Positions 33,420-64,000 of a stretch of DNA of 64,000 nt are shown one piece after another. Both the position numbers and the translations under genes were made by a program. Each line of letters begins with the position of its first letter. The stretch's first letter is position 1. The notes under the pieces were generated by a model. It was not told the origin of the DNA. It saw nothing but the letters and a program-made list of their open reading frames with translations, and did not search any database. Origin of the DNA: Malacoraja senta (taxonomy: Eukaryota); the NCBI GenBank assembly GCA_038087875.1, contig CM075992.1:11782001-11846000 (forward strand), read 5' to 3'.

Positions 33420-33457
33420 CGCAAAAGATGAACTCTTCGGGCGAAAATTTATCAAAT
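33420..33457 (-). CDS. Putative 38-nt linker micro-exon of the ADGRE-like gene
   Basis: Strong acceptor ttttctgttctcttcacag and donor G|gtaagc; phase 1-0 bridges the EGF exon to the next exon; (D)LINFRPKSSSFA. Confidence 0.6.
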
Positions 33458-34239
33458 CTGTGAAGAGAACAGAAAATAGTTGAAAAAAGATATAAAATGC
33501 TGGAATATCTCAGCAGGTCATGCACTATCCCTGGAGAATTTAGACCGGAGGCATTTCGGGTTGGGACCCTTCTTTGGACCGATCGTATGGGGGGGGCAAA
33601 AAAGCTGGAAGAAAGGAGGGACAGGACAAAGTGTGGTTGGCGATGGGTGAACACAGGGAAAGGGGTTTTGATAGGCAAATGGTTGGACAAATGAGGGGGC
33701 TGGGAAGAAATAGGTACAAGGCCAGGTGGGACTCAGGGGAATCCCCTCCCCTTTCACCCCCAGACAACCCTCTTTCTTGCTCCCTCCGCTGACCTGAGCC
33801 ACAACTGGCCGTGCACCTATTACTCCCCTCCCCCAACATTTCTTCCTCCAGATTCTTAAATCACAACTCTTTAATTCTTTTGTCTCACACCCTGTGTGTT
33901 TTCATCTCTGGCCTTTGTCCACCCATCTGCCTATCAACCCTCCCTCGCTTGTGCTTACCTATTACCTGCCGTGCTTTGTCCTGCCCCTCCTCTCTTCCAC
34001 TTTTCATCTCCCCACCTTACAAACAGTCTGAAGAAGGGTCCCGACCAGAAAGTCACCTTTGCATATTCTGCAGGGATGCTGCCTGACCCTCTGAGTTACT
34101 CCTGCATTTTTGTATCTATTTTTGGTAAACCAGCATCTGCAGTGCTTTGTTTCAACCAGAAAACAGCTGCAGCAGCTGTCAGGAGGATATGTTGTTACAA
34201 AGGACCTTCCACCATCACCATCTGCTTACTGAAGGATAC

Positions 34240-38457: not shown

Positions 38458-39371
38458 GACAAGCACAAAGACAAGCTCCTTCATTTTGTTGGCATTGAGG
38501 CAGAGGTTGTTGCTTTCACACCATGTTACTAAGCTCTCCATCGCCTCATACTCTTGTACTCCATCTAGTCATTGTTTGAGATCCAGCACAGCCCAAGGAG
38601 GGCTGTAGTTATAAAGTGAATGCACAGGCTAATGGTGAATTTATAGAGGTGTATAAAATCATGAGGGGAATAGATAGTGTGAACGCACAGAGGCTAGAGA
38701 CTCCTTCAGTCTCCTCTGGACATGTGCAAACCAGCTAGTAGGAGCATTGTAGACATCTTTAACCTCTCACCACTCCATTCTCAGATTATTCTCACGAGGA
38801 GGTTTGGGGGTGACCTTATATAGATTTGGGCCATTCTTTGGAAAGTGAACCAACATGTCACACACGTTACCAAAGGTGTGTCACAGAGCGATTCACTTGG
38901 ATACACTGTGAATGGAGGGATATGGATCACTTGCAGGCAGAGGAGATTAGTTTAACTTGGTGTTGTGTTCGCAGACACATTGTTGGGCTAAAGGGTCTGT
39001 TTCTGTGCTGTATGGTCTGTACAGGATTGTTAAGATGCTAATACTATCTTGCTATTATGTCCAATGCTCTGGTTGGACACTGACTTTTGAGTCAAAGGCC
39101 AGTAAAATCCAAGCATGGCCAGAAAGGGGAGAATAAGTGAAGCAAAGCCTGTCCCAGATTATAGTTGTCAACATTATTGTGATCTGGATGTCCTTGAGGG
39201 ACCAACGGTTAATAAGTAGTTTGAAATTTTTAGTTAATAACCAAAAATGCCCAATTTTGCTGGACACAAAGGACGAACAAAAAATACCCTGAACGGAATG
39301 AAAAATACAAACTGAGCAGCTCAGACCACAACTGCTCACAGCACTGCAAGTGTGGTCTCACCATAGACTTG

Positions 39372-41366: not shown

Positions 41367-42389
41367 AGCTCAGACCACAACTGCTCACAGCACTGCAAGT
41401 GTGGTCTCACCATAGACTTGTATCTTTATGTCCCAGAGTTAAGTTATATTAGCTATTCCTTGGACCACTTTCCCAACTGACCGAGATCCTTTTGTAAACT
41501 TACTATATATTTCTTCACTGCCCAGTATACCACAGATTTTGGAGTTACCTGCATATTTACTCACCACAATAACTACATGATATTCATATTGATAATGTAG
41601 ATAAGGAACAACAATAGACCCATCACCAAACCCTCCCTGCAGCACTCCACTGGTCACAGTCCACAAACAAATAAATCACATCACAACTACCCTTTGACTA
41701 CTTCCTCCAAGCCAATTTCGTCAGTCATAGAGTGATACAGCATGGAAACATGCCCTTTGGCCCAACTTGCCCATGCCAGCCAACGTGTCCCTACCACACT
41801 AGTTCCACCTGCCCGTGTTTGGTCCGTATGCCTCCAAACCCATCCTATCCATGTACAGTATCTGTCTAACAACATCCCATTTGCCAGCTCACCTTGGATT
41901 CCTGACTAGTCTACCATGTGGAACCTTGTCGAATACCTTCCAAAGTCCATATAGACAACATTGCCCTACCGCCATCAATCCTCTTGGTGACTTCATGAAA
42001 AATCTCAGATTCATTTCCAATGAAAAAGGCCATGATGGCTGTAGAACATGGAATTTTGGATCAAACCTGCCGTAATGTCCTGGCTGACTGGTTTGTTTGA
42101 TGCAACTGATGTCACTCACAAGTCATGGCACAGTTGGGTAAAAGCAATGTTATGAAAGGTAGTGTCAACAGACTTTCAAAGGCCATAAAAGATGTCAGAA
42201 AAGTTCATGCTGATCAAACAAGGTGGACGGAGGGAAGCTTATTAATTCCACACTGGTAGACGGCTCAAATATCAGAAAGAATGTGAGGACAAACCGAGTC
42301 ATCTAAGCTTTTGAATTGGGATCATCTTGTAGGTAAAAGGTGGGGGAATGGAATTGATATACGGCAGCACTGGAAGGAGAGGTGGGAGA

Positions 42390-45065
42390 TTACAAGTTGA
42401 ATCAGGAGTTAAAATTGGCATGTAGTAAAGGTAATGCTACAGTTGTTATGGGAGATTTCAACACGCAGGTAGACTGGGAAAATCTGGACCCCAAGAAATA
42501 ATAATAATAATAAAACATTTTATTTATGGGCGCCTTTCAAATCTCAAGGACACCTTACAGATTTTACAGTAGAAACATATAAACGGAATGAAATAAATAG
42601 TAAAGACATCACAAGTACACAAATTAAAAACAGAATTCAATCCGAACACAAAAATCAAAAACACAGTATGGAAGAGAGAGCAGCGGCTGCTAATACACAA
42701 AGGGAGTTTGTGGAGTGCCTCCGTGATGGATTCTTCGAGCAGCTTGTATTGGAGCCTACCAGGGAGAAGGCAATTCTGGATTTAGTGTGATGTAATGAAC
42801 CGGAACTTGAGGATAAGGAAGTTGAGGTTAAGGAGCCATTAGGAGATAGTGACCATAATATGGTCAAATTTAATCTACAATTGGAGAGGGAGAAGGGTAA
42901 ATCGGAGGAGTCGGTTTTACAGTTGAATAAAGGGGGCTATGGAGCCATGAGGGAGAAGCTGGCCAAATTGACTGGAAAAATACGCTAGAAGGGATGACAT
43001 CGGAACAACAATGGCAGGTACTTCTGGGAATAATACAGACGGTGCAGGATCAGTTCATTCCAAGGGGAGTATGCGGCTAATGTGGCTGACCAGGGACGTC
43101 AGGGTCAGTATAAAAATAAAACAGTAGCAACGTAGCTTAGATGACCGGGAAGCAAGAGGATTGGGTAATGTCTAAAGAGCAACAGAAGAGAACTGAAAAG
43201 GCAATACGGGGAGAAAAGATGAGGTACGTAGGTAAGCTAGCCAAGAATATAAAGGAGGATAGTAAAAGCTTCTTTAGGTATGTAAAGAGGAAGAAATTAG
43301 TTAAGATCAAAGTTGGACCCTTGAAGACTGAAAAAGGTGAATTTATTATGGGGAACAAGGAAAGGGCAGATGAGTTGAACAGGCACTTTGGATCCGTATT
43401 CACTAAGGAGGACACAAACATTTTCCTGATATACTAGTGGCCAGAGGATCTGGGGTGACAGAGGAACTGAAGGAAATCCACATTAGGCAGGAAATGGTGT
43501 TGGGTAGACTGATGGGACTGAAGGCTGATAAATCCCCAGGGGCCTGCTCGTCTGCATCCCAGGGTACTTAAGAAAGTTGCTCTAAAAATCGTGGATGCAT
43601 TGGTGATAATTTTCCACAGTTTTATAAATTGAGGATCAGTTCCTGTGGATAAGAGGATAGCTAATGTTATCCCACTTTTTAAGAAAGGCGGGAGAGAGAA
43701 AACAGGGAATTATAGACCGGTTAGCCTGACATCGGTGGTGGGGAAGATGCTGGAGTCAATTATAAAAGATGAAATAGCGGCACATTTGGATAGCAGTAAC
43801 AGGATCAGTCCGAGTCAGCATGGATTTACAAAGGGGAAATCATGCTTAACTAATCTTCTGGAATTTTTTGAGGATGTAACCAGGAAAATGGACAAGGGAG
43901 AGCCAGTGGATGAAGTGTACCTGGACTTTCAGAAAGCATTTGATAAAGTCCCACATAGGAGAATAGTGGGCAAAATTAGGGCACATGGTATTGGGGGTAG
44001 AGTGCTGACATGGATAGAAAATTGGTTGGCAGACAGGAAACAATGAGTAGGGATTAACGGGTCCCTTTCAGAATGGCAGGCAGTGACTAGTGGGTGCCAC
44101 AAGGCTCACTGCTGAGTGCAGCTATTTACAATATATTTCAATGATTTAGATGAAGGAATTCAAAGTAACATCAGCAAATTTGCAGATGACACAAAGCTGG
44201 GTGGCAGTGTGAACTGTGAGGAGGATGCTATGAGAATGCAGGGTGACTTGGACAGGTTGAGTGGGTGGGCAGATGCATGGCAGATGCAGTTTAATGTGGA
44301 TAAATGTGAAGTTATACACTTTGGTAGCAAAAACAGGAAGGCAGAAGTACAGAAGCATCTGGAGGTCCTTGTTCATCAGTCAATGAAAGTAAGCATGCAG
44401 GTACAACAGGCAGTGAAGAAAGTGAATGGCATGTTGGCCTTTATAACAAGAGGAGTTGAATATAGAAGCAAAGAGGTCCTTCTGCAGTTGTATAGGACCC
44501 TAGTGAGACCACATCTGGAGTATTGTGTGCAGTTTTGGTCCTCTAATTTGAGGAAGGACATTCTTCTTATTGAGGGAGTGCATCGCAGGTGTACAAGCTT
44601 AATTCCAGGGATGGCGGGACTGTCATAGGCTAAGAGAATGGAGCGGCTGGGCTTGTATATTTTAGAAGGATGAGAGGAGATCTTATTGAAACATATAAGA
44701 TTATTAAGGGTTTGGACACGCTGGAGGCCGGAAACATGTTCCCGATGTTGGGGGAGTCCAGAACCAGGTGCCACAGTTTCAGAATAAGGGGCAAGCCATT
44801 TAGAACAGAGACGTGGAACGTTTTCTCACAGAGAGTTGTGAGTCTGTGCAATTCTCTGCCTCTGAGGGCGGTGGAGGCCGGTTCACTGGATACTTTCAAT
44901 AGAGAGCTAGATAGGGCTCTTAAAGATATCGTAGTCAGGGGATATGGGGAGAAGGCAGGAACGGGGATTGGGGATGATCAGCCATGATTACATTAAATGG
45001 TGGTGTTGGCTCGAAGGGCCGAATGGCCTACTCCTGCACCTATTGTCTATTGTCTGTTGTCTATT
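42390..45065 (+). mobile_element. CR1 LINE, 5'-truncated (cassette 1), with a short minus-strand insert at about 42497-42697
   Basis: MGDFN, SDHN, NYRPVSL and FADD motifs; (ctattgt)n tail about 140 bp from EGF exon C. Confidence 0.9.
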
Positions 45066-45208
45066 GATTTTCCAATACTCCTCTATGTACCTGAAACCAG
45101 CTGCTATGGCCTTGCCTCTTCCCATTCATGCCAAGTTCAAAGCACAAGCTCCCCAGTGAGGCAAAACAGTAAAGTATTAAATACAAAAATATGAGTGACA
45201 GCACCCAC

Positions 45209-45361
45209 CTTTGCAGCCTCTGTTGTCTGTGAAGTTACGTTGTTTGCTCGGGTGGAAATATCCTGCCTTACAGGTACAGTAGTAGCTTCCCACTGTGTTG
45301 TGACAATCAGTGTTGCTGCCACACAGTGTTTGTGCAGAAGTTCCATTACTTTCATCCTCAT
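45209..45361 (-). CDS. ADGRE-like EGF exon, copy C (Cys1 replaced by Ser)
   Basis: ccatccag|ATGAGGAT...TGCAAAG|gtgggt; 153 nt; (D)[50 protein letters not shown]. Confidence 0.85.
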
Positions 45362-46729
45362 CTGGATGGAGGAGAAAAATGATCCATGCTTTAATAAAAA
45401 CCAAGAAGGAATGAGTGGTCTGTTGCCCATGCCAGTCCTCACACTCCACAGCTGATCATTCCTGGTCCTATCGTGACCTGTCCCTCCATCTCCACCATCC
45501 CTTGATTCAATCAACATTCACAATGTCAGCCTGGTGTGGCCTCAACAACTGTGGCTCCACAGTGAGGAACAGGAAGACTCACAACCTTCTGAGCAAAGGG
45601 ACCTTTCCTCAGCCCAGGCCTAAACGGACAAAGCCGCTGCCTCTCTGCTCCTCTGTTACTCCCACATCTACATCAGCAAACTTAGATTCTTTCTGCTTTT
45701 TGTGAAGTGTGTTATGTCATTACAAGGAGTCTTGCCTACCCCTGCTTCTCACAATACCCCTCACTCCTCCCCCCACCTACCCCACCTGGCCATCACCACA
45801 TCCCTCCCAGTGGACCCCCTCCCCCTTCCGTTGTTCCCATCCCCCACTACTCTTCCCATATTGATTCACTCTTCACCTTGCTTTCCTATCAAATTCCAGA
45901 ATCCACAGCCTTGTCTTGTTTCCACATCACCTCCCTGTCTCTATCTCTATTTCCACCCTTCCCTTCCCCAACTCACTCCATCTGCTAATTAACACTTCCT
46001 CATCTGTATCCACCTATCACTTGCCACACTTGCCCCAAGCCCTCCCGCACTCTTTGCAGTGGCTAACTCCCTTCTATTCTTTCTGCCCACATGAAGGTCA
46101 GAACCTGTCCATTTTCCACCAGAGATGCTGCCTGACACACTGACTATTCTCCTTTGTTGTCCCAGATCCCAGCATCTGCGATCTCTCGTGCTTCCTAGAC
46201 CACCTCATGTTTCACTCTCATTCAAATATTCATCACGGGAAATAGAACAATTTTCTTGGACTTTTCACAATCGAAGGCTTTGGTGTGATCTAAAAGTAAG
46301 GGCGGTTAGCTTTGTCCAAGCTTCCATCGCTGATACACTGGCTCTTGAGGCAATGCGATTCCAGAATGAGCAATCTTCCCTTGATAGGGTTAGAGACACC
46401 TGGTGATGGAAGGTGGGGAGACAGGGAAACTTGAGGCAGAGTGAGGTACCCTGACCTTGCCTCAGCTTTCCCCATCTTGGCGTCATGGATACCCGTTGAA
46501 CCATCCGTACCATTTGCCATTCCGGAACTGCAGATACTGGCTTATAGAAAAAGACTCAAAGGGCTGGATTAACTCAGCAGACAAAGCAGCATCACTAGAG
46601 AACAGGTACAGGTGACATTTCGGGTTGTCGTGGAGGTGGGGGGGGGGGGATGAAAGCGGGAAGAGAAGTCAGGGCAGGACAAAGCCTGGCAAGTGATATG
46701 TAGGTATAAGTGGGGAAGGGGCTGATTAC

Positions 46730-49700
46730 CTCCCATGGATGTTGAAGAAACAGCAGCAAAGAGAAGCAGGAAATAGCACTGATTGGCTCTAGCCCATGTA
46801 GAAGGAGAGTTGGAAGTGAGTCAGAGGGGGAAAAACAGTTGAAAAAGAGAGACAAAGCACAGGCAGACTTAACTCAGAGCTCCCGTGGATTTTGAAGAAA
46901 CAGCAGCAAAGAGAAGCCGGAAATAGCACTGATTGGCTCTAGCCCGAGTGGGAGGAGAGTTAGAAGTGAGTCAGGGGGGAAAACAGTTTAAAACAGAGGA
47001 ATTTGGTTTGTAAATTGGTAAATTAGGCAATTTATCAGTCAATATAAGCTGGGCGGCTCTTAGGGAGTGGCCTTGTGAGGGAAGTGCCTTGTGAGAAAAG
47101 TGTGACTCTTTGGCTCGAGAGTCTCTGGCGAGGAGCCTGAGGCGAGGAGGCTACACTTAAAGCTGGAGAGGACGGAACGCGGTGAACACATGTCGGGGCA
47201 GATGAGACAGTGTGAGTCTTGCAGAATATGGGAGCCCAGGGACACAGATGGAGCCTCTGGCTGCTACACCTGTGGCAAGGGCGTCCATCTTCAGCACCGA
47301 AAGGACCGTGTTGGGGCATTGGAGAAGCAGCTGGATTGCCTCCGGGCCATCTGAGAAAACGAGTGTTTCCTGGGCAGCAAATACAGTGAGGTAGTCACGC
47401 CGAGGTTACGGGAAGAACCAAGGTGTGTGATGGAGAGAAAGGGTGGAAATCGTGGAGTGCAGAAGACTCGGGTGGCTGTGCCTAATGAAAACAGGAACGC
47501 CCTCTTGGGAACTGTCTGGGGAGACGATGTTTCCAGTCCGAACGGTGGACACGTCGGTGGCTCCAATCCTGGAGATGGGACTCGACCGGCGAGACCGACG
47601 TCAGGCAGAGCCTTCGTGGTGGGTGACTCTATTGTCCGAGGGATGGACAGGAGATACTGTGGTGGCAGACAAGATGCGAGGATGGTCTGTTGCCTCCCTG
47701 GTGCCAGGGTTCAGGATGTCACGAGCCGAATTCTGAACATCCTCGAGAGAGAGAAGGTGAACAGCCGGCAGTAGTTGTGCACGTAGGCACAAACGACATT
47801 GGGAAGAAGTGGAAGGAGGTTCTCCAACATGACTTCAGAGAGTTGGGAAGTAGACTGAAATGCCAGACTTCTAGGGTGGTTATCTCTGGATTGCTTCCAG
47901 TACCTCGTGCTAGTGAGGACAGGAACAGGGAGATAGGGGATCTGAATGTGTGGCTGAGGGGCTGGAGCAGGGAGCAAAGATTTAGATTTATAGACCACTG
48001 GGATCTCTTCTGGGATAGGGGTGACCTGTACAAAAGGGACTGGTTACACCTTAACTGGAGGGGGACTGACATTCTGGCAGGCATGTTTGCTAGGCCGACA
48101 CGTGTGGGTTTAAACTAAATAGTGGGGGGGAGGGATTGACAAATTGGGAGTATAAAGATGGAGTTGAAGGGGAAGTGGCTACAGGAAAAATTACAAAAGA
48201 TTCTCGAATTAATGGGATGGAAAGGTTGAGAATGGACAACAGAGTAAGGTCAGGGCCAATTGCGAGCGGTGCGAGGGGGGAAGTGAATACGGAGGTCAAA
48301 GTGCTGTATATGAATGCGCGAAGTATAAGGAATAAAGTGGACGAGCTTGAAGCTCAGTTAAAAACTGGCAAGTATGATGTTGTGGGAATTACTGAGACAT
48401 GGCTGCAAGACGGCCAGGGCTGGGAACTGAATATTCAAGGGTATACCTCCTATCGAAAAGACAGAAAGGTGGGCAGAGGGGGTGGGGTTGCACAGTGGGT
48501 GAGGAATGAAATTCAGTCCTTTGCAAGGGGTGACATTGAAACAGGAGATGTGGAGTCAGTATGGATAGAACTAAGGAATTGTAAGGGTTAAAAGACCCTA
48601 ATGGGACTAATCTACAGGCCCCCAAACTGTAGCCTGGACATAGGGCGCAAGTTGAATCAGGAGTTAAAATTGGCATGTTGTAAAAGTAATGGTGTGTTTG
48701 TTATGGGAGATTTCAACATGCAGGTAGACTGGGAAAATCAGGTTTGTACTGGATCCCAAGGAAGGGGCTTCGTAGAGTGCCTTAGTGATGGATTCTTAGA
48801 GCAGCTTGTATTGGAGCCTACCAGGGAGAAGGCAATTCTGGATTTAGTGTTATGTAATGAACTGGATTTGATAAAGGAACTTGAGGTTAAGGAGCCATTA
48901 GGAGGTAGTGACCATAATATGGTCAAGTTTAATCTACAATTGGAGAGGGAAAAGGGTAAATTGGAGGTGTCGGTGTTGCAGTTGAAAACAGAGGGCTATG
49001 GAGCCATGAGGGAGAAGCTGGCCAAATTGACTGGAAAAATACACGAGAAGGGATGACAGTGGAACAACAATGGCAGGTAATTCTGGGAATAATAGACGGT
49101 GCAGGATCAGTTCATTCCAAAGAGGGAGTAAGATTCCAAGGGGAGTAAGGGGCGACAGTGGCTGACCAGCGACGTCAGGGACAGTATAAAAATAAAAGAG
49201 AACAAATACAACGTAGCATAGATGACCGGGAAGCAAGAGGATTGGGTAATGTCTAAAGTGCAACATAGAGAACTAATAAGGCAATACGGGGAAAAAAGAT
49301 GAGGTACGAAGGTAAGATAGCCAAGAATATAAAGGAGGATAGTAAAAGCTTCTTTAGGTATGTAAAGAGGAAAAAAATAGTTAAGACCAAAGTTGGACCC
49401 TTGAAGACAGAAAAAGGTGAATTTATTATGGGAACAAGGATATGGCAGATGAGTCGAACAGGTACTTTGGATCAGTCTTCACTAAGGAGGACACAAACAA
49501 TCTTCCTGATATAGTAGTGGTCAGAGGGTCTGGGTGACAGAGGAACTGAAGGAAATCCACATTAGGCAGGAAATGGTGTTGGGTAGACTGATGGAACTGA
49601 AGGCTGATAAATCCCCAGGGCCTGATGGTCTGCATTCCAGGGTACTTAAGGAAGTGGCTTTAGAAATCGTGGATGCATTGGTGATAATTTTCCAGAGTTT

Positions 49701-51195
49701 TATAGATTCAGGATCAGTTCCAGTGGATAAGAGGGTAGCTAATGTTATCCCATTTTTTAAGAATGGCGGGAGTGAGAAAACAGGGAATTATAGACCAGTT
49801 AGCCTGACATTGGTGGTGGGGAAGATGCTGCAGTCAATTATAAAAGATGAAATAGCGGCACATTTGGATAGCAGTAACAGGATCGGTCTGAGTAGCATTG
49901 ATTTACGAAGGGGAAATCATGCTTGATTAATCTTCTGGAATTTTTGAGGATGTAACTAGGAAAATGGACAAGGGAGAGCCTGTGGATGTAGTGTACCTGG
50001 ACCTTCAGAAAGCATTTGATAAGGTCCCACATAGGAGATTAGTGGGAGAAATTAGGTCACAAGGTATTGGGGCTAGAGTGCTGACATGGATAGAAAATTG
50101 GTTGGCAGACAGGAAACAAAGAGTAGGGATTAACGGGTCCCTTTCAGAATGGCAGGCAGTGACTAGTCGGGTGCCGCAAGGATCGGTGCTGGGACCGCAG
50201 CTATTTACAATATACATCAATGATTTAGATGAAAGGATTCAAAGTAACATTAGCAAATTTACAGATGATACAAAGCTGGGTGGCAGTGTGAGCTGTGAGG
50301 AGCATGCTATGAGAATGCAGGGTGACTTGGACAGGTTGAGTGTGTGGGCAGATGCATGGCAGATGCAGTTTAATGTGGATAAATGTGAGGTTATCCACTT
50401 TGTTAGCAAAAAACAGGAAGGCAGATTACTATCTAAATGGTGTCAAGTTGGGAAAAGGGAAGTACAACATGATCCGGGGGTCCTTGTTCTTCAGTCAATG
50501 AAAGTAAGCATGCAGGTACAGCAGGCAGTGAAGAAAGCGAATGGCATGTTGGCCTTTATAATAAGAGGAGTTGAGTGTAGGAGCAAAGAGGTCCTTATGC
50601 AGTTGTACAGAGCCCTAGTGAGACCACATCTGGAGTATTGTGTACAATTTTGGTCCCCTAATTTGAGGAAGGACATTCTGGCTATTGAAGGAGTTCAGCG
50701 TGGGTTAACAAGTTTAATTCCCAGGATGGCGGGACTGTCATATGCTGAGAGAATGGAGCGGCTGGGCTTGTATACTCTGGAGATTAGAAGGTTGAGAGGG
50801 GATCTTATTGAAACATATAAGATTATTAAGGGTATGGACACTCTAGAGGCAGGAAACGTGTTCCTGATGTTGGGGGAGTCCAGAATCAGGGACCACAGTT
50901 TCAGAATAAGGTGTACACCATTTCGAACGGAAATGAGGTAACACATTTTCTCACAGAGAGTTGTGAGTCTGTGGATTCTCTGCCTCAGAGGGCGGTGGAT
51001 GCCGGTTCTCTTGATACTTTCAAGAGAGAGCTAGATAGGGCTCTTAAAGATAGAGGAGTCAGGGATATCGGGAGAAGGCAGGAACGGGGTATTGATTGGG
51101 GATGATCAGCCATGATCACATTTAATGGCGGTGCTGGCTCGAAGGGCCGAATGGCCTATTCCTGCACCTATTGCCTATTGTCTATTGTCTATTGA
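46730..51195 (+). mobile_element. Near full-length chimeric CR1 (5' repeats, ORF1 zinc finger plus SGNH esterase, ORF2 APE-RT), frameshifted
   Basis: MSGQMRQCESC; GDSIVRG and HVGTND esterase motifs; YMNARS, GITETW, GDFN and FTDD motifs. Confidence 0.92.
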
Positions 51196-51336
51196 TTTTT
51201 AAATACTCCTCTATGTACCTGAAACCAGCTGCTATGGCCTTGCCTCTTCCCATTCATGCCAAGTTCAAAGCACAAGCTCCCCAGTGAGGCAAAACAGTAA
51301 AGTATTAAATACAAAAATATGAGTGTCACCACCCAC

Positions 51337-51489
51337 CTTTGCAGCCTCTGTTGTCTGTGAAGTTACGTTGTTTGCTCAGGTGAAAATATCCTGCCTTACA
51401 GGTACAGTAGTAGCTTCCCACTGTGTTGTGACAATCAGTGTTGGGGCCACACACTGTTTGTGCAGAAGTTCCATTGCATTCATCCTCAT
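51337..51489 (-). CDS. ADGRE-like calcium-binding EGF exon, copy B
   Basis: ctccatcag|ATGAGGAT...TGCAAAG|gtgggt; 153 nt; (D)[50 protein letters not shown]. Confidence 0.9.
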
Positions 51490-52423
51490 CTGATGGAGGA
51501 AGAGAAAAAGATCCATGCTTTAATAAAAACCAAGAAGGGATGAGTGGTCTGTTGCCCATGCCAGTCCTCACACTCCACAGCTGATCATTTCTGATCCTAT
51601 CGTGACCTGTCCCTCCATCTCCACCATCCCTTGATTCAATCAACATTCACAATGTCAGCCTGGTGTGTCCTCAACAACTGTGGCTCCACAGTGAGGAACA
51701 GGAAGACACACAACCTTCTGAGCAAAGGACCTTTCCTCAGCCCAGGCCTAAACGGACAAAGCCGCTGCCTCTCTGCTCCTCTGTTACTCCCACATCTACA
51801 TCAGCAAACTTAGATTCTTTCTGATTTTAGTGAAGTGTGTTATGTCATTACAAGGAGTCTTGCATACCCCTGCTTCACACAATACCCCTCACTCCTCCCC
51901 CCACTTACCCCACCTGGCCATCACCACACATCCCTCCCAGTGGACCCCCTCCCCCTCCGTTGTTCCCATCCCCCTCTACTCTTCCCATATTGATTCACTC
52001 TTCGCCTTGCTTTCCTATCAAATTCCGGAATCCGCAGCCTTTTCTTGTTTCTACATAGATACATAGATACATAGAAAATAGGGGCAGGAGTAGGCCATTC
52101 GGCCCTTCGAGCCTGCACCTCCATTCAATATGATCATGGCTGATCATCCAACTCAGTATCCCGTACCTGCCTTCTATCCATACCCCATGATCCCTTTAGC
52201 CACAAGGGCCACATCTAACTCCCTCTTAAATATAGCCAATGAACTGGCCTCAACTACCCTCTGTGGCAGAGAATTCCAGAGATTCACCACTCTCTGTGTG
52301 AAAAAGTTTTTCTCCTCTCGGTCTTAAAGGATTTCCCCCCTTATCCTTAAGCTGTGACCCCTTGCCCTGGACTTCCCCAACATCGGGAACAATCTTCCTG
52401 CATCTAGCCTGTCCAACCCCATA

Positions 52424-53514
52424 CAAACCTACCGACTCCCATGGCTATCTGGACTACACTTCTTCCCACCCTGCTTCCTGTAAGGACTCCATCCCCCACT
52501 CCCAATTCCTCCGTCTACACCGCATCTGCTCCCAGGATGAGGCGTTCCACACCAGGGCATCTGAAATGTCCTCATTGTTCAGGGAACGGGGGTTCCCCTC
52601 CTCCACCATAGATGAGGCTCGCACCAGGGTCTCTGCCATACCCCGCAACACTGCTCTCTCTCCCCATCCCCCCACTCACAACAAGGGCAGAGTCCCCCTA
52701 GTCCTCACCTTTCACCCCACCAGCCGTCACATACAACAAGTGATCCTCTGTCAGTTTCGCCACCTCCAACGTGACCCCACCACTCGCCACATCTTCCCAT
52801 CTCCCCCCATGTCTGCCTTCCGCAAAGACCGCTCCCTCCGTAACTCCCTTGTCAATTCTTCCCTTCCCTCCCATACCACCCCCTCCCCTGGTACTTTCCC
52901 TTGCAACCGCAAGAGATGCAACACTTGTCCCTTCACCTCCCCCCTCCACTCCATTCAAGGACCCAAGCAGTCGTTCCAGGTGCGACAGAGGTTCACCTGC
53001 ATCTCCTCCAACCTCATCTATTGCATTCGCTGCTCTAGATGCCAGCTGATCTACATTGGTGAGACCAAGCGGAGGCTTGGCGATCGTTTCGCCGAACACC
53101 TCCGGTCGGTCCGCAATAACTAACCTGAACTCCCGGTGGCTCAGCACTTCAACTCCCCCTCCCATTCCGTATCTGACCTCTCTGTCCTGGGTCTCCTCCA
53201 TGGCCACAGCGAGCAACACCGTAAATTGGAGGAAATGCACCTCATATTCCGCTTGGGCAGTCTACATCCTGGGGGTTTGAACATTGAATTCTCCCAATTC
53301 TGCTAGCCCTTGCTGTCCCCTCCCCTTCATCAGCCATCTGGTTGTCTCCTCCCCTCCCCCAGCCCTCGGGCTCCTCCTCCACATTTTTCCTTTTTTCCTT
53401 TCTTCTCCCCACCCCCTATCAGTCTGAAGAAGGGTTTTGGCCCGAAACGTTACCTATTTCCTTCGCTCCATAGATGCTGCTGCACCCGCTGAGTTTCTCC
53501 AGCATTTTTGTGTA
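52424..53514 (+). mobile_element. Penelope-like element (RT C-terminus plus GIY-YIG) nested in CR1
   Basis: YKPTDSHGYLDYTSSHP and FTCISSNLIYCIRC..C..IYIGETKRRL motifs; cccata duplication at 52418-52423 and 53515-53520. Confidence 0.9.
53421..53454 (+). ncRNA. Minimal hammerhead-ribozyme motif at the Penelope 3' end
   Basis: AGU-CUGAAGA-AGGGUUUUGGCCC-GAAAC-GUU-ACC. Confidence 0.6.
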
Positions 53515-55151
53515 CCCATAAGAATTTTGTAAGTTTCTAAAAGATCCCCTCTCAATCTCCTAAATTCTAGCGAGTTTAAGCCGAGTCTATCCAGTCTTTG
53601 TTCATATGAAAGTCCTGACATCCCAGGAATCAGTCTGGTGAACCTTCTCTGCACTCCCTCTATGGCTATAATGTCCTTCCTCAGATTTGGAGACCAAAAC
53701 TGTACGCAATACTCCAGGTGTGGTCTCACAAAGACCCTGTACAACTGCAGTAGAACCACCCTGCTCCTATACTCAAATCCTTTTGCTATGACATCTAACA
53801 TACCATTCGCTTTCTTCACTGCCTGCTGCACCTGCATGCCTACTTTCAATGACTGGTGTACCATGACACCCAGGTCGCGCTGCAGCTCCCCTTTTCCTAA
53901 TCGGCCACCATTTAGATAATAGTCTGCTTTCCTGTTTTTTCCACCAAACTGGATAACCTCACATTTATCCACATTATACTGCATCTGCCAAATATTTGCA
54001 CACTCACCCAGCTTATCCAAGTCACCTTGCAGTCTCCTGGCATCCTCCTCACAGCTAACACTGCCCCCCAGCTTAGTGTCATCCGCAAACTTGGAGATGT
54101 TGCCTTCAATTCCCTCATCCAGTTCATTAATATAAATTGTAAATAGCTGGGGTCCCAGCACTGAGCCTTGCGGTACCCCACTAGTCACTGCCTGCCATTG
54201 TGAAAAGGACCCGTTTACTCCTACACTTTGCTTCCTGTATGCCAGCCAGTACTCTATCCACATCAATACTGAACCTCCAATACCATGTGCTTTATGTTTG
54301 TATATTAATCTCTTATGTGGGAACTTGTCGAAAGCCTTCTGAAAGTCAAGATACAACACATCCACTGGTTACATCACCTCCCAGTCCCTGTCTCTATCTC
54401 CACCCTTCCCTTCCACACCTCACTCCATCTGCTTCCTCACCTGTATCCACCTATCACTTCCACACTTGCCCCAATCCCTCCCGCACTCTTTGCAGTGACT
54501 ATCTCCCTTCGATTCTTTCTGCCCACATGAAGGTCAGAACCTGTCCATTTTCCACCAGAGATGCTGCCTGACCCACTGACAATTCTCCTTTGTTGTGCCA
54601 GATCCCAGCATCTGCGATCTCTCGTGCCTCCTAGACTACCACATGATTCACTCTCATTCAAATATTCATCACAAGAGAAATAGAACAATTTTCTTGGTCT
54701 TTTAAAAACCGAAGGCTTTGGTGCGATCTGAAAGAAAGGGCGGTTAGTTTTGTCCATGCTTCCATCGCTGATACACTGGCTCTTGAGGCAATGCGATTCC
54801 GGAATGAGCAGTCTTCCCTTGATAGGGTTAGAGACACCTGGTGATTGAAGGTGGGGAGACTGGGAAACTTGAGGCAGAGTGAGGTACTGCCTTGCCTCAG
54901 CTTTCCCATCTTGGCGTCATGGATACCCGTTGAACCATCCGTACCATCCGCCATTCAGGAACTGCAGATACTGGCTTATAGAAAAAGACTCAAAGTGCTG
55001 GAGTACCTCAGCAGACCAGGCAGCATCACTGGAGAACAGGTACAGGTGACATTTCGGGTGGTCGGGGAGGGGAAGAAAGCTGGAAGAGATGTCTGTGCAG
55101 GACAAAGCCTGGCAAGTGATATGTAGATACAAGTGGGGAAGGGGCTGATTA

Positions 55152-58100
55152 ACTCCCGTGGATTTTGAAGAAACAGCAGGAAAAAACACTGATTGGCTCT
55201 AGCTCGAGTGGGAGGAGAGTCAGAAGTGAGTTAGAGGGGGAAAAACAGTTGAAAAAGAGAGGCAAATCACAGGCAGACTTAACTCGGAGCTCCTGTGAAT
55301 TTTGAAGAAAGCAGCAAAGAGAAGCAGGAAAAAGCACTGATTGGCTCTAGCCCGAGTGGGAGGAGAGTTAGAAGTGAGTCAGAGAGGGAAAATAGTTTAA
55401 AACTGAGGAATTTGGTTTGTAAATTAGGCAATTTATCAGTCAATATAAGCAAGTCGGCTCTTAGGGAGTGGCCTTGTGAGGGAAGTGCATTGTGAGAAAA
55501 ATATGAGTCTTTGGCTCGAGAGTCTTTGGCGAGGAGGCTGAGGAGAGGAGGCTACGCATAAAGCTGGAGAGGACGGAACGTGGTGAGCACATGTCGGGGC
55601 AGATGAGACAGTGTGAGGCTTGCAGAATATGGGAGCCCAGGGACACAGATGGAGTCTCTGGCTGCTATACCTTTGGCAAGTTCATTCAGGTTCAAAAAGG
55701 ACCGTGTTGGGGCACTGGAGAAACAACTTCATTACCTCCGGGCCATCCGGGAAAACGAGTTTCCTGGACAGGACATAAAGTGAGGTAGTCACGCCGAGGT
55801 TACGGGAAGAACCAAGGTATGTGATGGAGAGAAAGGGTGGAAATCGTGGAGTGCAGAAGACTCAGGTGGCTGTGCCTAATGAAAACAGGAACGCCCTCTT
55901 GGGAACTGTCCAGGGAGGCAATGTTTCCAGTCCGAGCGGCGGACACATCGGTGGCTCCAATCCTGGAGATGGAACTCGACCGGCGAGACCGACGTCAGGC
56001 AGAGCTTTCGTGGTGGGTGACTCCATTGTCCGAGGAATGGACAGGAGATTCTGTGGCGGCAGACGAGATGCGAGGATGGTCTGTTGCCTCCCTGGTGCCA
56101 GGGTTCAGGATGTCACGAGCCGAATTCTGAACATCCTCGAGAGAGAGAGAAGGTGAACAGCCGGCAGTAGTTGTGCACGTAGGCACAAACGACATTGGGA
56201 AGGAGGTTCTCCAACATGACTTCAGAGAGTTGGGAAGAAGACTGAAAGGCCGGACTTCTACGGTGGTTATCTCTGGATTGCTTCCAGTACCTCGTGCTAG
56301 TGAGCACAGGAACAGAGAGATAGGGGATCTGAATGTGTGGCTGAGGGGCTGGAGCAGGGAGCAAAGATTTAGATTTATAGACCACGGGGATCTCTTCTGG
56401 GATCGGGGTGACCTATAGAAAAGGGACAGGTTACACCTTAACTGGAGGGGGACTGACATTCTGGCAGGCATGTTTGCTAGCCCTACACGTGTGGGTTTAA
56501 ACTAAATAGTGGGGGGGAGGGGTTGACATATTGGGAGTATAAAGAGGGAGTTGAAGGGGAAGTGGCTACAGGAAAAATTACAAAAGATTCTCGAATTAAT
56601 GGGATGGAAAGGTTGTGAATGGACAACAGAGTAAGGTCAGGGCCAATTGCGAGCGGTGCGAGGGGGGAAGTGAATACGGAGGTCAAAGTGCTGTAAATGA
56701 ATGCGCGAAGTATAAGGAATAAAGTGGACGAGCTTGAAGCTCAGTTAGAAACTGGAAAGTATGATGTTTTGGGAATTACTGAAAAATGGCTGCAAGAGGG
56801 CCAGGGCTGGGAACAGAATATTCAAGGGTATACCTCCTATCGAAAAGACAGAACGGTGGGCAGAGGGGGTGAGGTTGCCCAGTGGGTGAGGAATGAAATT
56901 CAGTCCCTTGCAAGGGGTGACATTGAAACAGGAAATGTGGAGTCAGTATGGATAGAACTAAGGAATTGTAAGGGTAAAAAGACCCCAATGGGACTAATCT
57001 ACAGGCCCCCAAACAGAAGCCTGGACATAGGGCGCAAGTTGAATCGGGAGTTAAAATTGCCATGTACTAAAAGTAATGCTGTGGTTGTTATGGGAGATTT
57101 CAACATGCAGGTAGACTGGGAAAATCAGGTTGGTACTGGATCCCAAGAAAGGGACTTTGAAGAGTGCCTTAGTGATGGATTCTATGAACAGCTTGTATTG
57201 GAACCTACCAGGGAGAAGGCAATTCTGGATTTAGTGTTAAGTAATGAACCGGATTTGATAAAGGACCTCGAGGTTAATGAGCCATTAGGAGGCAGTGACC
57301 ATAACATGGTCAGGTTTAATCTACAATTGGAGAGGGAGAAGAGTAGATCGGAGATATCAGTGTTGCAGTTGAATAAAGGGGGCTATAGGGCCATGAGGGA
57401 GGAGCTGGCCAAAGTTGACTGGAAAGATACACTGGCAGGGATGACAGTGGTACAAAAATGGCAGGTGTTTTTAGGAATAATACAGAAGGTGCAGGATCAG
57501 TTTCATTCCTACGAGGAAAACAGATTCTAGGGGGAGAAAGGGACGACCATGGCTGACAAGGGACGTCAGGGACAGTATAAAAATTAAAGTGAAAAAGTAC
57601 AAAGTAGCAAAGGTGATCGGGAAGCAAGAGGATTGTGTAATGTTTAAAGAACAACAGAAGATAACCAAAAAGACAATACGGGGAGAAAAGATGAGGTATG
57701 AAGGTAAGCTAGCCAAGAATATAAAGCAGGATAGTAAAAGCTTCTTTAGGTATGTGAAGAGGTAAAAATTAGTTAAGACCAAAGTTGGACCATTCAAGAT
57801 CGAAAAAGATGAATTTATTATGGGGAACAAGGAAATAGCAGATGAACTGGTACTTTGTATCTGTCTTCACCAAGGAGGACACAAACAATCTTCCTGATAT
57901 AGTAGTGGCCAGGGGATCTGGGATGACAGAGGAACTGAAGGAAATCCACATTAGGCAGGAAATGGTGTTGGATAGACCGATGGGACTGAAGGCTGATCAA
58001 TTCCCAGGGCCTGATGGTCTGCATCCCAGGGTACTTATTTTCCCAGGGTGATAATTTTCCAATGTTCTATAGACTCGGGATCAGTTCCTATGGATTGGAG

Positions 58101-58985
58101 GGTAGCTAAAGTTATCCCACATTTTAAGGAAGGCGGGAGAGAGGAAACAGGGAATTATAGACCAGTTAGCCTGACATCGGTGGTGGGTAAGATGCGGGAG
58201 TCAATTATAAAAGGTGAAATAACGGCACATTAGGATAGCAGTAACAGGATCGGTCCGAGTCAGCATGGATTTACGAAAGAGAAATCATGCTTAACGAATC
58301 TTCTGGAATTTTTTCAGGATGTAACTAGGAAAATGGACAAGGGAGAGCCAGTGGTTGTAGTGTACCTGGACTTTCAGAAAGCATTTGATAAGGTCCCACA
58401 TAGGAGATTAGTGGGCAAAATTAGGGCACAAGGTATTGGGGATAGAGTGCTGACATGGATAGAAAATTGGTTGGCAGACAGGAAACAAAGAGTAGGGATT
58501 AACGGGGTCCCTTTCAGAATGGGAGGCAGTGACTAGTGGGGTGCAGCAAGGCTCGGTGCTGGGACCGCAGCTATTTACAATATACATCAATGATTTAGAA
58601 AAGGGATTCAAAGTAACGTCAGCAAATTTGCAGATGACACAAAGCTGCGTGGCAGTGTGAACTGTGAGGAGGATGCTATGAGAATGCACGGTGACTTGGA
58701 CAGGTTGAGTGTGTGGGCAGATGCATGGCAGATGCAGTTTAATGTGGGTTGTGAGTCTGTGGATTCTCTGCCTCAGAGGGCGGTGGAGGCCGGTTCTCTG
58801 GATACTTTCAAGAGAGAGCTAGATAGGGCTCTTAAAGATAGCAGGGTCAGGGGATATGGGGAGAAGGCAGGAACGGGGTATTCATTGGGGATGATCAGCC
58901 ATGATCACATTAAATGGCAGTGCTGGCTCGAAGGGCCGAATGGCCTACTCCTGCACCTATTGTCTATTGTTTGTTGTCTATTGAT
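55152..58985 (+). mobile_element. CR1, full-length at the 5' end, with an internal 3' deletion near 58747 (cassette 3)
   Basis: Paralogous to 46.9-48.8 kb; ORF1 esterase plus APE/RT motifs. Confidence 0.9.
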
Positions 58986-59125
58986 TTTCCAATACTCCTC
59001 TATGTACCTGAAACAAGCTGCTATGGCCTTGCCTCTTCCCATTCATGCCAAGTACAAAGCACAAGCTCCCCAGTGAGGCAAAACAGTAAAGTATTAAACA
59101 CAAAAATATGAATGTCACCACCCAC

Positions 59126-59278
59126 CTTTGCAGTCTCTGTTGTCTGTGAAGTTACGTTGTTTGCTCGGGTGGAAATATCCTGCTTTACAGGTACAGTAGT
59201 AGCTTCCCACTGTGTTGTGACAATCAGTGTTGTTGCCACACAGTGTTTGTGCAGAGGTTCCATTACATTCATCTTCAT
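59126..59278 (-). CDS. ADGRE-like calcium-binding EGF exon, copy A
   Basis: ccatccag|ATGAAGAT...TGCAAAG|gtgggt; 153 nt, phase 1-1; (D)[50 protein letters not shown]; six Cys, DxDEC and CxNxxGSYxCxC motifs. Confidence 0.9.
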
Positions 59279-60694: not shown

Positions 60695-63600
60695 GTGGGA
60701 GGCTGCAAGTTGAATCAGGAGCTAAAATTGGCATGTCGTAAAGGTAATGCTACCGTTGTTATGGGAGATTTCAACATGCCGGTAGACAGGGAAAATCAGG
60801 TTGGTACTGGACCCCAAGAAAGGGAGTTTGTGGAGTGCCTCTGTGATGGATTCTTAGAGCAGCTTGTATTGGAGCCTACCAGGGAGAAGGCAATTCTGGA
60901 TTTAGTGTTGTGTAATGAACCGGATTTAATAAAGGAACTTGAGGTTAAGGAGCCATTAGGAGGTAGTGACCATAATATGGTCAAGTTTAATCTACAATTG
61001 GAGAGGGAAAAGGGTAAATCGGAGGTGTCGGTGATACAGTTGAATACAGAGGGCTATGGAGCCATGAGGAAGAAGCTGGCCACATTGACTGGAAAAATAC
61101 ACGAGAAGGGATGACAGTGGAACAACAATGGCAGGTAATTCTGGGAATAATACAGACGGTGCAGGATCAGTTCATTCCAAAGAGGGAGTAAGATTCCAAG
61201 GGGAGTAAGAGGCGACTGTGGCTGACCAGGGACGTCAGGGACAGTATAAAACTAAAAGAGAAGAAATGCAACATAGCATAGATGACTGGGAAGCAAGAGT
61301 ATTGGATAATGTCTAAAGAGCAACAGAAGAGAACTAATAAGGCAATACGGGGAGAAAAGATGAGGTACGAAGGTAAGCTAGCCAAGAATATAAAGGAGGA
61401 TAGTAAAAGCTTCTTTAGGTATGTAAAGAGGAAAAAAATAGTTAAGACCAAAGTTGGACCCTTGAAGACGGAAAAAGGTGAATTTATTATGGGGAACAAG
61501 GAAATGGCAGATGAGTCGAACAGGTACTTTGGATCCGTCTTCACTTAGGAGGACACAAACAATCTTCCTGATATACTAGTGGCCAGAGGATCTGGGGTGA
61601 CAGAGGAACTGAAGGAAATTCACATTAGGCAGGAAATGGTGTTGGGTAGACTGATGGGACTGAAGGCTGATAAATCCCCAGGGCCTGATGGTCTGCATCC
61701 CAGGGTACTTAAGGAAGTGGCTTTAGAAATCGTGGATGCATTGGTGATAATTTTCCAGAGTTTTATAGATTCAGGATCAGTTCCTGTGGATAAGAGGGTA
61801 GCTAATGTTACCCCATTTTTTAAGAAATGCGGGAGAGAGAAAACAGGGAATTATAGACCAGTTAGCCTGACATCGGTGGTGGGGAAGATGCTGGAGTCAA
61901 TTATAAAAGATGAAATAGTGGCACATTTGGATAACAGTAACAGGATCGGTCCGAGTCAGCATGGATTTACGAAGGGGAAATCATGTTTGAGTAATCTTCT
62001 GGATTTTTTGAGGATATAACTAGGAAAATGGACAAGGGAGAGCCAGTGGATGTAGTGTACCTGGAGTTTCAGAAAGCATTTGATAAGGTCCCACATAGGA
62101 GATTAGTGGGCAAAATTAGGGTACAAGGTATTGGGGGTAGAGTGCTGACGTGGATAGAAAATTGGTTGGCAGACAGGAAACAAAGAGTAGGGATTAACGG
62201 GTCCCTTTCAGAATGGCAGGCAGTGACTAGTGGGGTGCCGCAAGGCTCGGTGCTGGGACCGCAGCTATTTTTTTTTTTTTTTTTTTTTTTTTAATTTTTT
62301 ATTTATTAGAAGTAAGTACATTACATTACAACCACATACATTAGTACTCGTCACTTATGTCTTCTTACAATTAATGTACTCCATTTATTTTATACACTAG
62401 TAAAAGGAAAAGATTGAAAGAAAGAAGAAAGTGAAGGAAAAAGTGAGAGTGTAGAAAATGTGACAACAAAAAAGGACGAAGACCCTATAAGAACAAAATT
62501 AAAAACAAAAGAAAAAGAGTTAAGAAATAGACCCTAGAAAAGAAAGAGAAAGAGGAAAAAAAGAGAAACAAATATTTTTATGAGCATTACGTAAATGGGA
62601 CATACCAACTCTTCAACTATCATCCCCCCTTACCTGACCTCAATTTTTTTTTTAAGGTATCTTTGCACCCTATATTTGTAATAATTCTATAAATGCAGAC
62701 CACGTCAGGTGGAAGTGATCTGGTTTACCTGCTAGGAGGAGTCTTATCTCTTCTAGGTGTAATGTTTCGAACATATTTGAAATCCACATGTTTATAGTTG
62801 GTATTGGAGCCTTCTTCCAAAATTTTAGAATTAGCTTTTTCCAGTTATTAACCCATAGTCTATTAGTTTCTTTTGAAACACATTTAGTTCTGGACCATCT
62901 TCCGTTATTCCAAAGATAATCCATTCTGCTTTGGGTATCAGTCTTATTTTAAGTACTTTTGTAAAGATTTCGTAAATTTCAGTCCAAAATGTTTGAATTT
63001 TTGTACAGAAAACGAATCATTGCGCTATAGTAGCTTCTTGGGATTGACATTTATCACAAATAGATGATACATTTGGGAACATTTTATGAATTTTAGTTTT
63101 CAAATAATATAATCTATGTAAAATTTTAAATTGTATTAAAGTGTGTCTTACATTAATCGAACATTTATGCACGTTTAATAAGTGTTCATTCCAACTTTCC
63201 TTTGAAATTTTAATAGCTAACTCTTGTTCCCAGTCTCTTCTGATACCCTCCGTAGATGGTATTTGTACATTTAAGATAATATTATACAAATATGATATTA
63301 AGTTTGCTGATTCAGCTTTTATCTGCATTGCCTCATCCAATATATCTGCTGGGTTATTATAGTGATCTTTTGTATATTTTTTCAAATAGTCTCATATTTG
63401 AAAATATTTAAAATATTGATTATTTCTGAGTTTATATTTTATTTGTAATTGTTGAAATGAAAGTAATTTTCCAGTTTCATACAAGTCACCGAGCATTTTC
63501 ATTCCTAATCTATCCCAATGTGTAAAAGCGTTATCTATAATAGAGGGATTAAACGAAGGGTTATTAACTATGGGTAATAAAAGTGATAAATTTCTTAATT

Positions 63601-64000
63601 TTAAATTTTGTTTTATTTGTTTCCAAATTCGGATTGTACTATGAATAATTGGGTTCTTATTATAATTTATATTATTCAGTTTCATTGTATAATATACATC
63701 AATGATTTAGATGAAGGGATTCAAAGTAACATTAGCAAATTTACAGATGACACAAAGCTTGGTGGCAGTGTGAACTGTGAGGAGGATGCCATGAGAATGC
63801 AGGGTGACTTGGACAGGTTGAGTGTGTGTGCAGATGCATGGCAGATGCAGTTTAATGTGGATAAATGTAAGGTTATCCACTTTTCTAGCAAAAACAAGAA
63901 GGCAGATTACTATCAAAATGGTGTCAAGTTGGGAAAAGGGGAATTACAACATGATCTGGTGGTCCTTGTTCATCAGTCAATGAAAGTAATCATGCAGGTA
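60695..64000 (+). mobile_element. CR1, 5'-truncated (cassette 4), running off the window end
   Basis: Same truncation point and upstream flank as the 42390 copy. Confidence 0.9.
62268..63686 (-). mobile_element. L1-clade LINE 3' end with poly(A) tail, nested in CR1
   Basis: Poly-T on the plus strand at 62268-62292; FKILHRLY and CDKC..H..C zinc-knuckle region; CR1 resumes at about 63688. Confidence 0.85.

What the first reader, a model, noticed from the sequence alone, without database searches (positions are those of the whole stretch)
48790..48880. Chimeric CR1 marks an apparent unequal-crossover breakpoint
Seen: up to about 48790 the cassette-2 CR1 shares its 5' flank, ORF1 and diagnostic bases (ggatccc, gccttagtgatgg) with the 55-59 kb copy. 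From about 48878 it instead matches the 5'-truncated 60.7-64 kb and 42.4-45 kb copies (gaacttgaggttaagg, ggtagtgaccataatatgg, the DKR-for-DWR change). Inference: non-allelic recombination between two different CR1 insertions created this hybrid and duplicated an EGF exon.
Basis: partly seen in the sequence, partly recalled or inferred. Interest (0 to 1): 0.72.

Follow-up and report, generated by a model that had tools for sequence, protein, structure and literature searches.

The report
Hybrid CR1s in skate receptor gene
Two copies of a common retrotransposon, lying in the introns of a skate immune-type receptor gene, recombined with each other at least twice and repeated an EGF-domain exon; this is a clear new example of a well-known way that genes gain repeated domains.

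Summary
The hybrid is real. The CR1 at 46.7-51.2 kb (B) shares its 5' flank, ORF1 and derived bases with the 55-59 kb copy (C) up to 48,784. After that it belongs to the lineage of the truncated copies A (42.4-45.1 kb) and D (60.7-64 kb). Best break 48,783/48,797, about 90% within 48,784-48,880; permutation p=1.9e-4; B-C divergence steps from 4.4% to 11.4%. The host is an ADGRE-like adhesion GPCR of a skate-like fish, with three 153-nt phase-1/1 calcium-binding EGF exons. Two separate insertions are supported: in the middle segment C shares 1 of 18 polarised non-family bases. C is itself a hybrid (break 58,223-58,375, p=5e-4), B's 3' part groups with D rather than neighbouring A, and further junctions exist. 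So exchange was recurrent, and this junction cannot be singled out as the one that duplicated the exon; a conversion tract of at least 1.7 kb is not excluded. No read spanning the junction was seen. The mechanism is known (LINE-LINE rearrangement); only the instance is new.

The parts
48784..48853 (+). Breakpoint interval in CR1 copy B (best 48,784-48,796); contains a 35-36 bp exact match between C and B/D at 48,817-48,852
46727..48784 (+). 5' part of hybrid CR1 B, full-length (F) lineage: 5' UTR repeats, GDSL-esterase ORF1, start of the endonuclease
48797..51192 (+). 3' part of hybrid CR1 B, truncated (T) lineage, D-like to at least ~50,470
42392..45064 (+). CR1 copy A, 5'-truncated T lineage, with a ~200-bp insert at 42,499-42,702; first cysteine of its neighbouring exon is lost
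55149..58982 (+). CR1 copy C: a second F-to-T hybrid, with a ~580-bp internal deletion at 58,747/58,748
58223..58375 (+). Second breakpoint interval, in copy C
   Evidence: 82/1086 vs 7/428 C-only sites, p=5e-4
60705..64000 (+). CR1 copy D, 5'-truncated T lineage, with a 1.4-kb insert at 62,271-63,688; runs off the window
45209..45361 (-). Calcium-binding EGF exon copy A (153 nt, phase 1/1, Cys1 to Ser)
51337..51489 (-). Calcium-binding EGF exon copy B (153 nt, phase 1/1, six Cys, AG/GT intact)
59126..59278 (-). Calcium-binding EGF exon copy C (153 nt, phase 1/1, six Cys, AG/GT intact)
45065..46726 (.). Duplicated intron segment Q (45,065-46,171, holds the exon) plus R (46,172-46,726); repeated at 51,193-52,056 + 54,371-55,148, and Q alone at 58,983-60,160
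41833..42391 (.). 5' flank P of the truncated element; repeated at 60,160-60,704 behind a non-homologous Q/P junction
52057..54370 (-). Later insertion into Q of unit B: an inverted CR1 of another family with a nested Penelope-like (GIY-YIG) piece
33420..33458 (-). Linker exon that follows the EGF array in the host gene
   Evidence: 11/13 identical to Amblyraja P0002
32053..32247 (-). Stalk exon of the host gene
   Evidence: 86% identical to P0002 over 65 aa
6489..6659 (-). GPS-motif exon of the host adhesion GPCR
   Evidence: (PF01825, E 3e-16)

Best explanation
Two CR1 insertions of one family sat in direct orientation in introns on either side of an EGF exon of an ADGRE-like gene: a 5'-truncated one (T, between flanks P and Q) and a full-length one (F, after flank R), in the order P-T-Q(exon)-R-F. 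Homology-directed exchange between them joined the 5' part of F to the 3' part of T in register, which repeats Q-R and its symmetrical phase-1 exon head to tail. This happened at least twice, at different points about 1.1 kb apart in the element: near 58.3 kb (copy C) and at 48.78-48.85 kb (copy B). B's junction is most likely a true unequal crossover with a D-type T copy, one step in a longer series of exchanges in the array. Shown: B and C are mosaics, the break positions, the shared derived changes, the exon copies. Inferred: the ancestral order, crossover rather than conversion, the order of events, and that the exons are spliced in.
For: Break statistics. T lineage defined by changes shared by A, B, D and absent from C: a 1-bp frameshift at 49,026, DWR to DKR, a shared stop. 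Family-majority bases from four runs (tallied): of the 20 shown rows in 48,787-49,950 where B's base is shared with another copy, C has the family base at 16, a gap at 2, a third base at 1 and B's base at 1. F lineage defined 5' of the break by changes shared by B and C against outgroup proteins (KG to KS, LRD to LSD). F's 5' end cuts an old repeat whose continuation is not found in Q, so Q is unlikely to be F's own 3' flank. C's 3' part is T-derived: C-only sites fall from 7.6% to 1.6% while A/B/D variation stays flat (93/1086 vs 36/428) and an unrelated CR1 pair stays at 6.2-8.4%; C shares derived residues with B and D there (H to Q, E to V). B-C just upstream (61/1393) equals B-D downstream (77/1712), p=0.93, as a crossover predicts. 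A 35-36 bp exact match lies in the break interval, close to the 34-bp median for human LINE-1 rearrangements (PMC9675761, passages).
Against: B's 3' part is sister to D, which lies to its right, not to A (10 B+D sites vs 3 and 0 for the other groupings after the break), so extra exchanges must be assumed. B-C divergence has its own step at ~47,385 (8.4% vs 4.4%, p=0.002). After ~49.96 kb all copies are T-type, so a switch back cannot be seen. The three Q copies form a star and the polarity of C's 78 extra bases could not be fixed (p about 0.13-0.33). No target-site duplication was visible to tie flanks to elements. The flat-prior Bayes factor on four-way columns was neutral. Only 40 of 111 family-difference rows were shown.
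Confidence: 0.55

Rival explanations
1. Same two insertions, but B's junction is a secondary, copy-neutral event: an older C-type hybrid unit was duplicated, then a long gene-conversion tract (or double crossover) from a D-type copy overwrote 48.8 kb to at least 50.5 kb. The exon duplication came from the 58.3-kb junction.
For: C is an independent hybrid whose junction alone explains a Q-R duplication. B-C over the whole upstream 2.6 kb (159/2561) is older than B-D (77/1712), p=0.017. A switch back is invisible past 49.96 kb.
Against: The tract would be at least 1.67 kb (B+D derived residues to ~50,470), long for a conversion (own knowledge). B lacks C's 580-bp deletion and 78 extra bases, which must then be later and private to C. 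B is no closer to C than to A in the 3' end and Q (63/1323 vs 61/1320, summed).
Confidence: 0.27
2. C, not B, is the recombinant: C took a 1.1-kb patch (57.2-58.3 kb) from an unrelated CR1 by ectopic conversion, B is an unrecombined element with flanks R and Q, and A/D descend from a separate truncated-to-full-length hybrid.
For: One patch would give both apparent breaks in C, and B and C share both flanks directly.
Against: A and D must then be hybrids whose break coincides with the patch's left edge within ~150 bp of a 2.5-kb homology; Q-R must already have been tandem; and the repeat cut at F's 5' end has no continuation in Q.
Confidence: 0.1
3. T and F are not separate insertions but old duplicates of one insertion, P-T being a 5'-deleted derivative; the hybrids are ordinary exchanges between paralogous units.
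For: All three complete copies end in the same Q flank; all four share one non-family base at 48,995 and a G-to-S change in the RT (in the segment where C is T-type); no target-site duplication.
Against: B-C 11.4% in the middle segment is about twice B's 5.3-5.6% distance from the family majority (95-101 of 1801), and C shares only 1 of 18 ungapped polarised bases, so the lineages part near the family consensus.
Confidence: 0.05
4. Assembly mis-join, or template switching during retrotransposition.
For: No contig or read spanning the junction was displayed (one search listed 32 of about 278,000 pieces, all distant family members).
Against: B differs from C by 4-8% upstream and from D by about 4% downstream, so it copies neither; exact matches between C and the other copies do not exceed 48 bp up to 49,960; the window has no N. 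Template switching would give new flanks, but both of B's flanks are shared with other copies.
Confidence: 0.03

Closest known systems
Transposable-element-mediated rearrangements by homologous repair / LINE-LINE NAHR (PMC9675761, passages; PMC4344489, abstract)
   Same: Two directly oriented LINEs, an in-register chimeric element at the junction, a short perfect match at the break (35-36 bp here, median 34 bp for LINE-1), duplication of the intervening DNA.
   Different: CR1 in a cartilaginous fish rather than human L1 or Alu; old and fixed in this assembly; the same pair was used at two breakpoints; present identity of the parents is ~88.5% against a 93.5% figure for human LINE-1 cases (closer at the time of the event, by inference).
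EGF-TM7 / ADGRE adhesion GPCRs with variable EGF number and concerted evolution (PMC8584163, PMC2720389, passages; the EMR2 chimera paper by Kwakkenbos 2006 seen only as a citation)
   Same: Tandem calcium-binding EGF exons, stalk and GPS exon; mosaic history; family described as numerically unstable.
   Different: Mammalian cases concern splicing variants and conversion between genes; here the change is intragenic exon copy number with intronic CR1s at the junctions. No 7TM exon lies in the window.
Exon-array expansion by unequal crossing-over with associated LINE-like elements (Tetrahymena LRR genes, PMC6564038, passages)
   Same: Symmetrical-phase exon units repeated in tandem, with non-LTR elements proposed as crossover sites.
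   Different: There the role of the element was proposed but called not yet demonstrated; here junctions map inside the elements.
CR1 clade non-LTR retrotransposons
   Same: Esterase-type ORF1, endonuclease plus RT ORF2, 5' truncation, short-repeat 3' tail; best protein hits are CR1-like RTs of birds, turtles and sharks.
   Different: All four copies are dead (stops, frameshifts); subfamily not named, as no repeat library was available.

Membership tests
TE-mediated rearrangement by homologous repair (LINE-LINE NAHR) | Two elements of one family in direct orientation | tested here: met
   All four copies on +
TE-mediated rearrangement by homologous repair (LINE-LINE NAHR) | Junction rebuilds one element in register, no gap or insert | tested here: met
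   B aligns to C and D without gap across 48,700-49,020
TE-mediated rearrangement by homologous repair (LINE-LINE NAHR) | Nearest neighbour switches at the junction | tested here: met
TE-mediated rearrangement by homologous repair (LINE-LINE NAHR) | Parents are separate insertions at separate sites | tested here: met
   Different 5' flanks, F interrupts an old repeat, 1 of 18 shared polarised bases; F's own 3' flank not seen, so indirect
TE-mediated rearrangement by homologous repair (LINE-LINE NAHR) | Flanking markers exchanged (crossover, copy-number change) rather than conversion | tested here: inconclusive
   No switch back for 1.67 kb, but D ends at the window edge and Q copies are unresolved
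TE-mediated rearrangement by homologous repair (LINE-LINE NAHR) | Unrearranged allele or orthologue with both parents intact | not testable with these tools
   No genome held; no eukaryote DNA collection
CR1 clade | APE endonuclease and RT in ORF2; esterase ORF1 | tested here: met
   PF14529, PF00078, PF13472 above cut-off
ADGRE (EGF-TM7) adhesion GPCR | Tandem calcium-binding EGF domains | tested here: met
   PF07645 above cut-off in 3 of 3 exons
ADGRE (EGF-TM7) adhesion GPCR | GPS motif downstream on the same strand | tested here: met
   PF01825 at 6.5-6.66 kb; that it is the same transcript is inferred
ADGRE (EGF-TM7) adhesion GPCR | Seven-transmembrane domain grouping with ADGRE | tested here: inconclusive
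   No 7TM exon found in the window with the lungfish protein as query; it would lie left of the GPS exon, probably outside
ADGRE (EGF-TM7) adhesion GPCR | Exons expressed in one spliced transcript | not tested
   No RNA run was laid on the exons

The most novel reading that the evidence does not exclude
One pair of intronic CR1 insertions has acted as a reusable engine that changes the number of EGF domains in a skate leukocyte-type adhesion GPCR: each new exchange at a different point adds or removes an in-frame domain, leaving a dated series of hybrid elements, with stalk length still varying between skate species (nine repeats in the Amblyraja protein) and perhaps between individuals under selection for ligand binding.
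Probability: 0.2. Interest if true: 0.5.

Novelty: new member of a known kind. Interest (0 to 1): 0.3.

Why it matters
It is a base-level record of how a repeated protein domain gained copies: the junctions sit inside dead CR1 elements and can be mapped and roughly ordered. LINE-mediated rearrangement is well described in humans; a worked CR1 case in a cartilaginous fish immune-type receptor did not come up in five literature searches, which cover open-licence papers only. It adds an example, not a mechanism.

Tried and rejected
Whole-genome context: none held. Laying contigs at 86% likeness gave family-majority bases but no locus-level piece, so the junction was not checked against reads. Search for close CR1 ORF2 proteins returned mostly bird proteins at 37-51%; only five (54-72%) served as outgroups. 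Polarity of the 78 bases found only in C's Q: profile and anchored tests inconclusive. Target-site duplications: none seen. Tally of family differences by base change could not polarise the 5' sites. One AB-shared site at 48,767 is an alignment artefact at the edge of A's insert; columns 48,762-48,769 were dropped from the trees, and 49,649-49,657, misaligned beside a deletion in C, from the counts. RT-core conservation as the cause of C's late similarity was rejected by two controls. Earlier findings of the scan: none. PMC13172734 (passages) concerns intra-exon duplication without elements and was set aside; PMC8665684 (passages) only states that CR1 similarity can enable such recombination. 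No supplements were read.

Full report
Layout. A self-comparison of the window shows a tandem array between 41.8 and 64 kb. In order: flank P; a 5'-truncated CR1 (A, 42,392-45,064); intron segments Q and R; a full-length CR1 (B, ~46,727-51,192); Q (split by a later inverted insertion at 52,057-54,370) and R; a second full-length CR1 (C, ~55,149-58,982, with an internal deletion); a cut Q; a cut P; and a second truncated CR1 (D, 60,705 to the window end). Pfam finds esterase, endonuclease and RT domains in B, and the best long protein hits are CR1-type RTs.

Host gene. Each Q holds a 153-nt phase-1/1 exon on the minus strand with AG/GT borders that scores above the cut-off for the calcium-binding EGF family in 3 of 3 copies. 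A search with it returned 5 proteins, among them a Leucoraja ADGRE2-like protein (88%) and an Amblyraja protein with nine such repeats (82%). The Amblyraja protein also matches a linker exon at 33.4 kb and a stalk exon at 32.1-32.2 kb, and a GPS exon lies at 6.5-6.7 kb. The gene is therefore an ADGRE-like adhesion GPCR of a skate-like fish; no 7TM exon was found in the window, and splicing was not tested.

Trees give (B,C) with bootstrap 100 before the break and (B,D) with 88 after, though the (B,C) tree is not rejected in the second segment. Without using A or D, B-C divergence steps from 61/1393 to 116/1018 (p=1e-10). The break has 0.90 posterior in 48,784-48,880. A flat-prior Bayes factor on the four-way columns was neutral, because only 129 columns with 6 informative sites lie 5' of the break; the case rests on the 2.6 kb of flank and element that B shares with C alone and on the derived changes below.

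Two lineages, probably two insertions. A, B and D share a 1-bp frameshift at 49,026, a stop and the DWR-to-DKR change; C has the ancestral states. B and C share derived residues 5' of the break. Contigs of four runs laid at 86% likeness gave the family-majority base at 111 places, 40 shown. In 48,787-49,950, of 20 shown places where B's base is shared, C has the family base at 16, a gap at 2, a third base at 1 and B's base at 1. B lies 95-101 of 1801 bases from the family majority, about half the B-C distance of 11.4%. The full-length element begins exactly where an old repeat in R stops, and that repeat's continuation, seen in two other copies in the window, is not in Q. So Q is best read as the flank of the truncated element, and the ancestral order as P-T-Q-R-F (inference). 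No target-site duplication was visible.

C is also a hybrid. Sites where C alone differs fall from 82/1086 to 7/428 at C 58,223-58,375 (p=5e-4), while variation among A, B and D and between an unrelated CR1 pair stays level; beyond that point C shares derived residues with B and D. B's 3' part is nearer D (40/1045) than A (73/1020), with 10 B+D sites against 3 and 0, and shares derived residues with D to about 50,470. A single crossover between A and C would make B sister to A. B-C divergence has a further step near 47,385 (p=0.002), and the Q/P join at 60,160 is a separate non-homologous junction. The array thus records at least three junctions and probably four or more exchanges.

Mechanism. 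A join from the 5' part of F to the 3' part of T, with T upstream of F, repeats Q-R and its in-frame exon; at least one of the two hybrid junctions must have done so under the favoured model. For B, crossover is favoured over conversion because the D-like tract is at least 1.67 kb, B lacks C's deletion, and B-C just upstream equals B-D downstream (p=0.93). It is not proven: past 49.96 kb every copy is T-type, D leaves the window, and the Q copies form a star. Over the whole upstream 2.6 kb B-C is older than B-D (p=0.017), which suits a secondary exchange. A rival in which C took a foreign 1.1-kb patch needs two boundaries to coincide and a pre-existing Q-R tandem. A mis-join is unlikely, since B copies neither parent and exact matches are at most 48 bp, but no read spanning the junction was seen.

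Comparison with what is known. Human LINE-LINE recombination is described as widespread (PMC4344489, abstract). A human survey defines homologous events by a rebuilt chimeric element with a short perfect match, median 34 bp for LINE-1 (PMC9675761, passages); here a 35-36 bp match lies in the break interval. Variable EGF number and instability of the ADGRE family (PMC8584163, passages), conversion among EMR2, CD97 and EMR3 (PMC2720389, passages) and element-associated exon arrays (PMC6564038, passages) are in print. Five searches listed no paper on this locus or on a CR1 pair duplicating an exon in a skate; subscription journals and supplements were not covered.

Verdict. Observation confirmed; interpretation right in kind but incomplete. 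A new member of a known kind, interest 0.3.

Noticed in passing
window 45209-45361 (-): EGF exon copy A has lost its first cysteine (Cys to Ser) but keeps both splice sites and the frame; it may encode a defective domain or be skipped.
   Followed up: partly
window ~47385: B-C divergence steps from 8.4% to 4.4% (p=0.002): probably another hidden exchange inside the 5' part of the full-length element.
   Followed up: partly
window 60160: Non-homologous junction joining a cut Q to a cut P with 2-3 bp shared; marks a further tandem duplication that did not use the CR1 pair.
   Followed up: partly
window 58747/58748: About 580 bp missing from copy C with a 1-bp shared end; out of register, so end-joining rather than recombination.
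   Followed up: no
window 59601-59677: 78 bases present only in C's Q copy; insertion in C or deletion shared by A and B could not be decided.
   Followed up: yes
window 52057-54370: Inverted CR1 of a second family (about 77% to B) inserted into Q, itself interrupted by a Penelope-like GIY-YIG element at about 52,424-53,513.
   Followed up: partly
window 62271-63688: AT-rich insert led by a long poly-T run inside copy D, with a short duplicated target; looks like an inverted poly(A)-tailed retroelement, not identified by a tool.
   Followed up: no
P0002 (Amblyraja radiata): Labelled LTBP2-like by its source, but it is the likely orthologue of this gene: nine 51-aa EGF repeats in two types, some identical, then the same linker and stalk. 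The window's three repeats differ from each other by 3-4 residues and from these by 7-12.
   Followed up: partly
window 24.7-28.9 kb and 12.6-16.1 kb: ORFs resembling a tyrosine-recombinase (DIRS-type) retroelement on the - strand (gag-like, RT-like, recombinase-like by eye), with a second inverted copy at ~70% identity; label from recall.
   Followed up: no
window 39234-41303 (+): A 690-residue open RT frame of an RTE-like element, just left of the array; label from recall.
   Followed up: no
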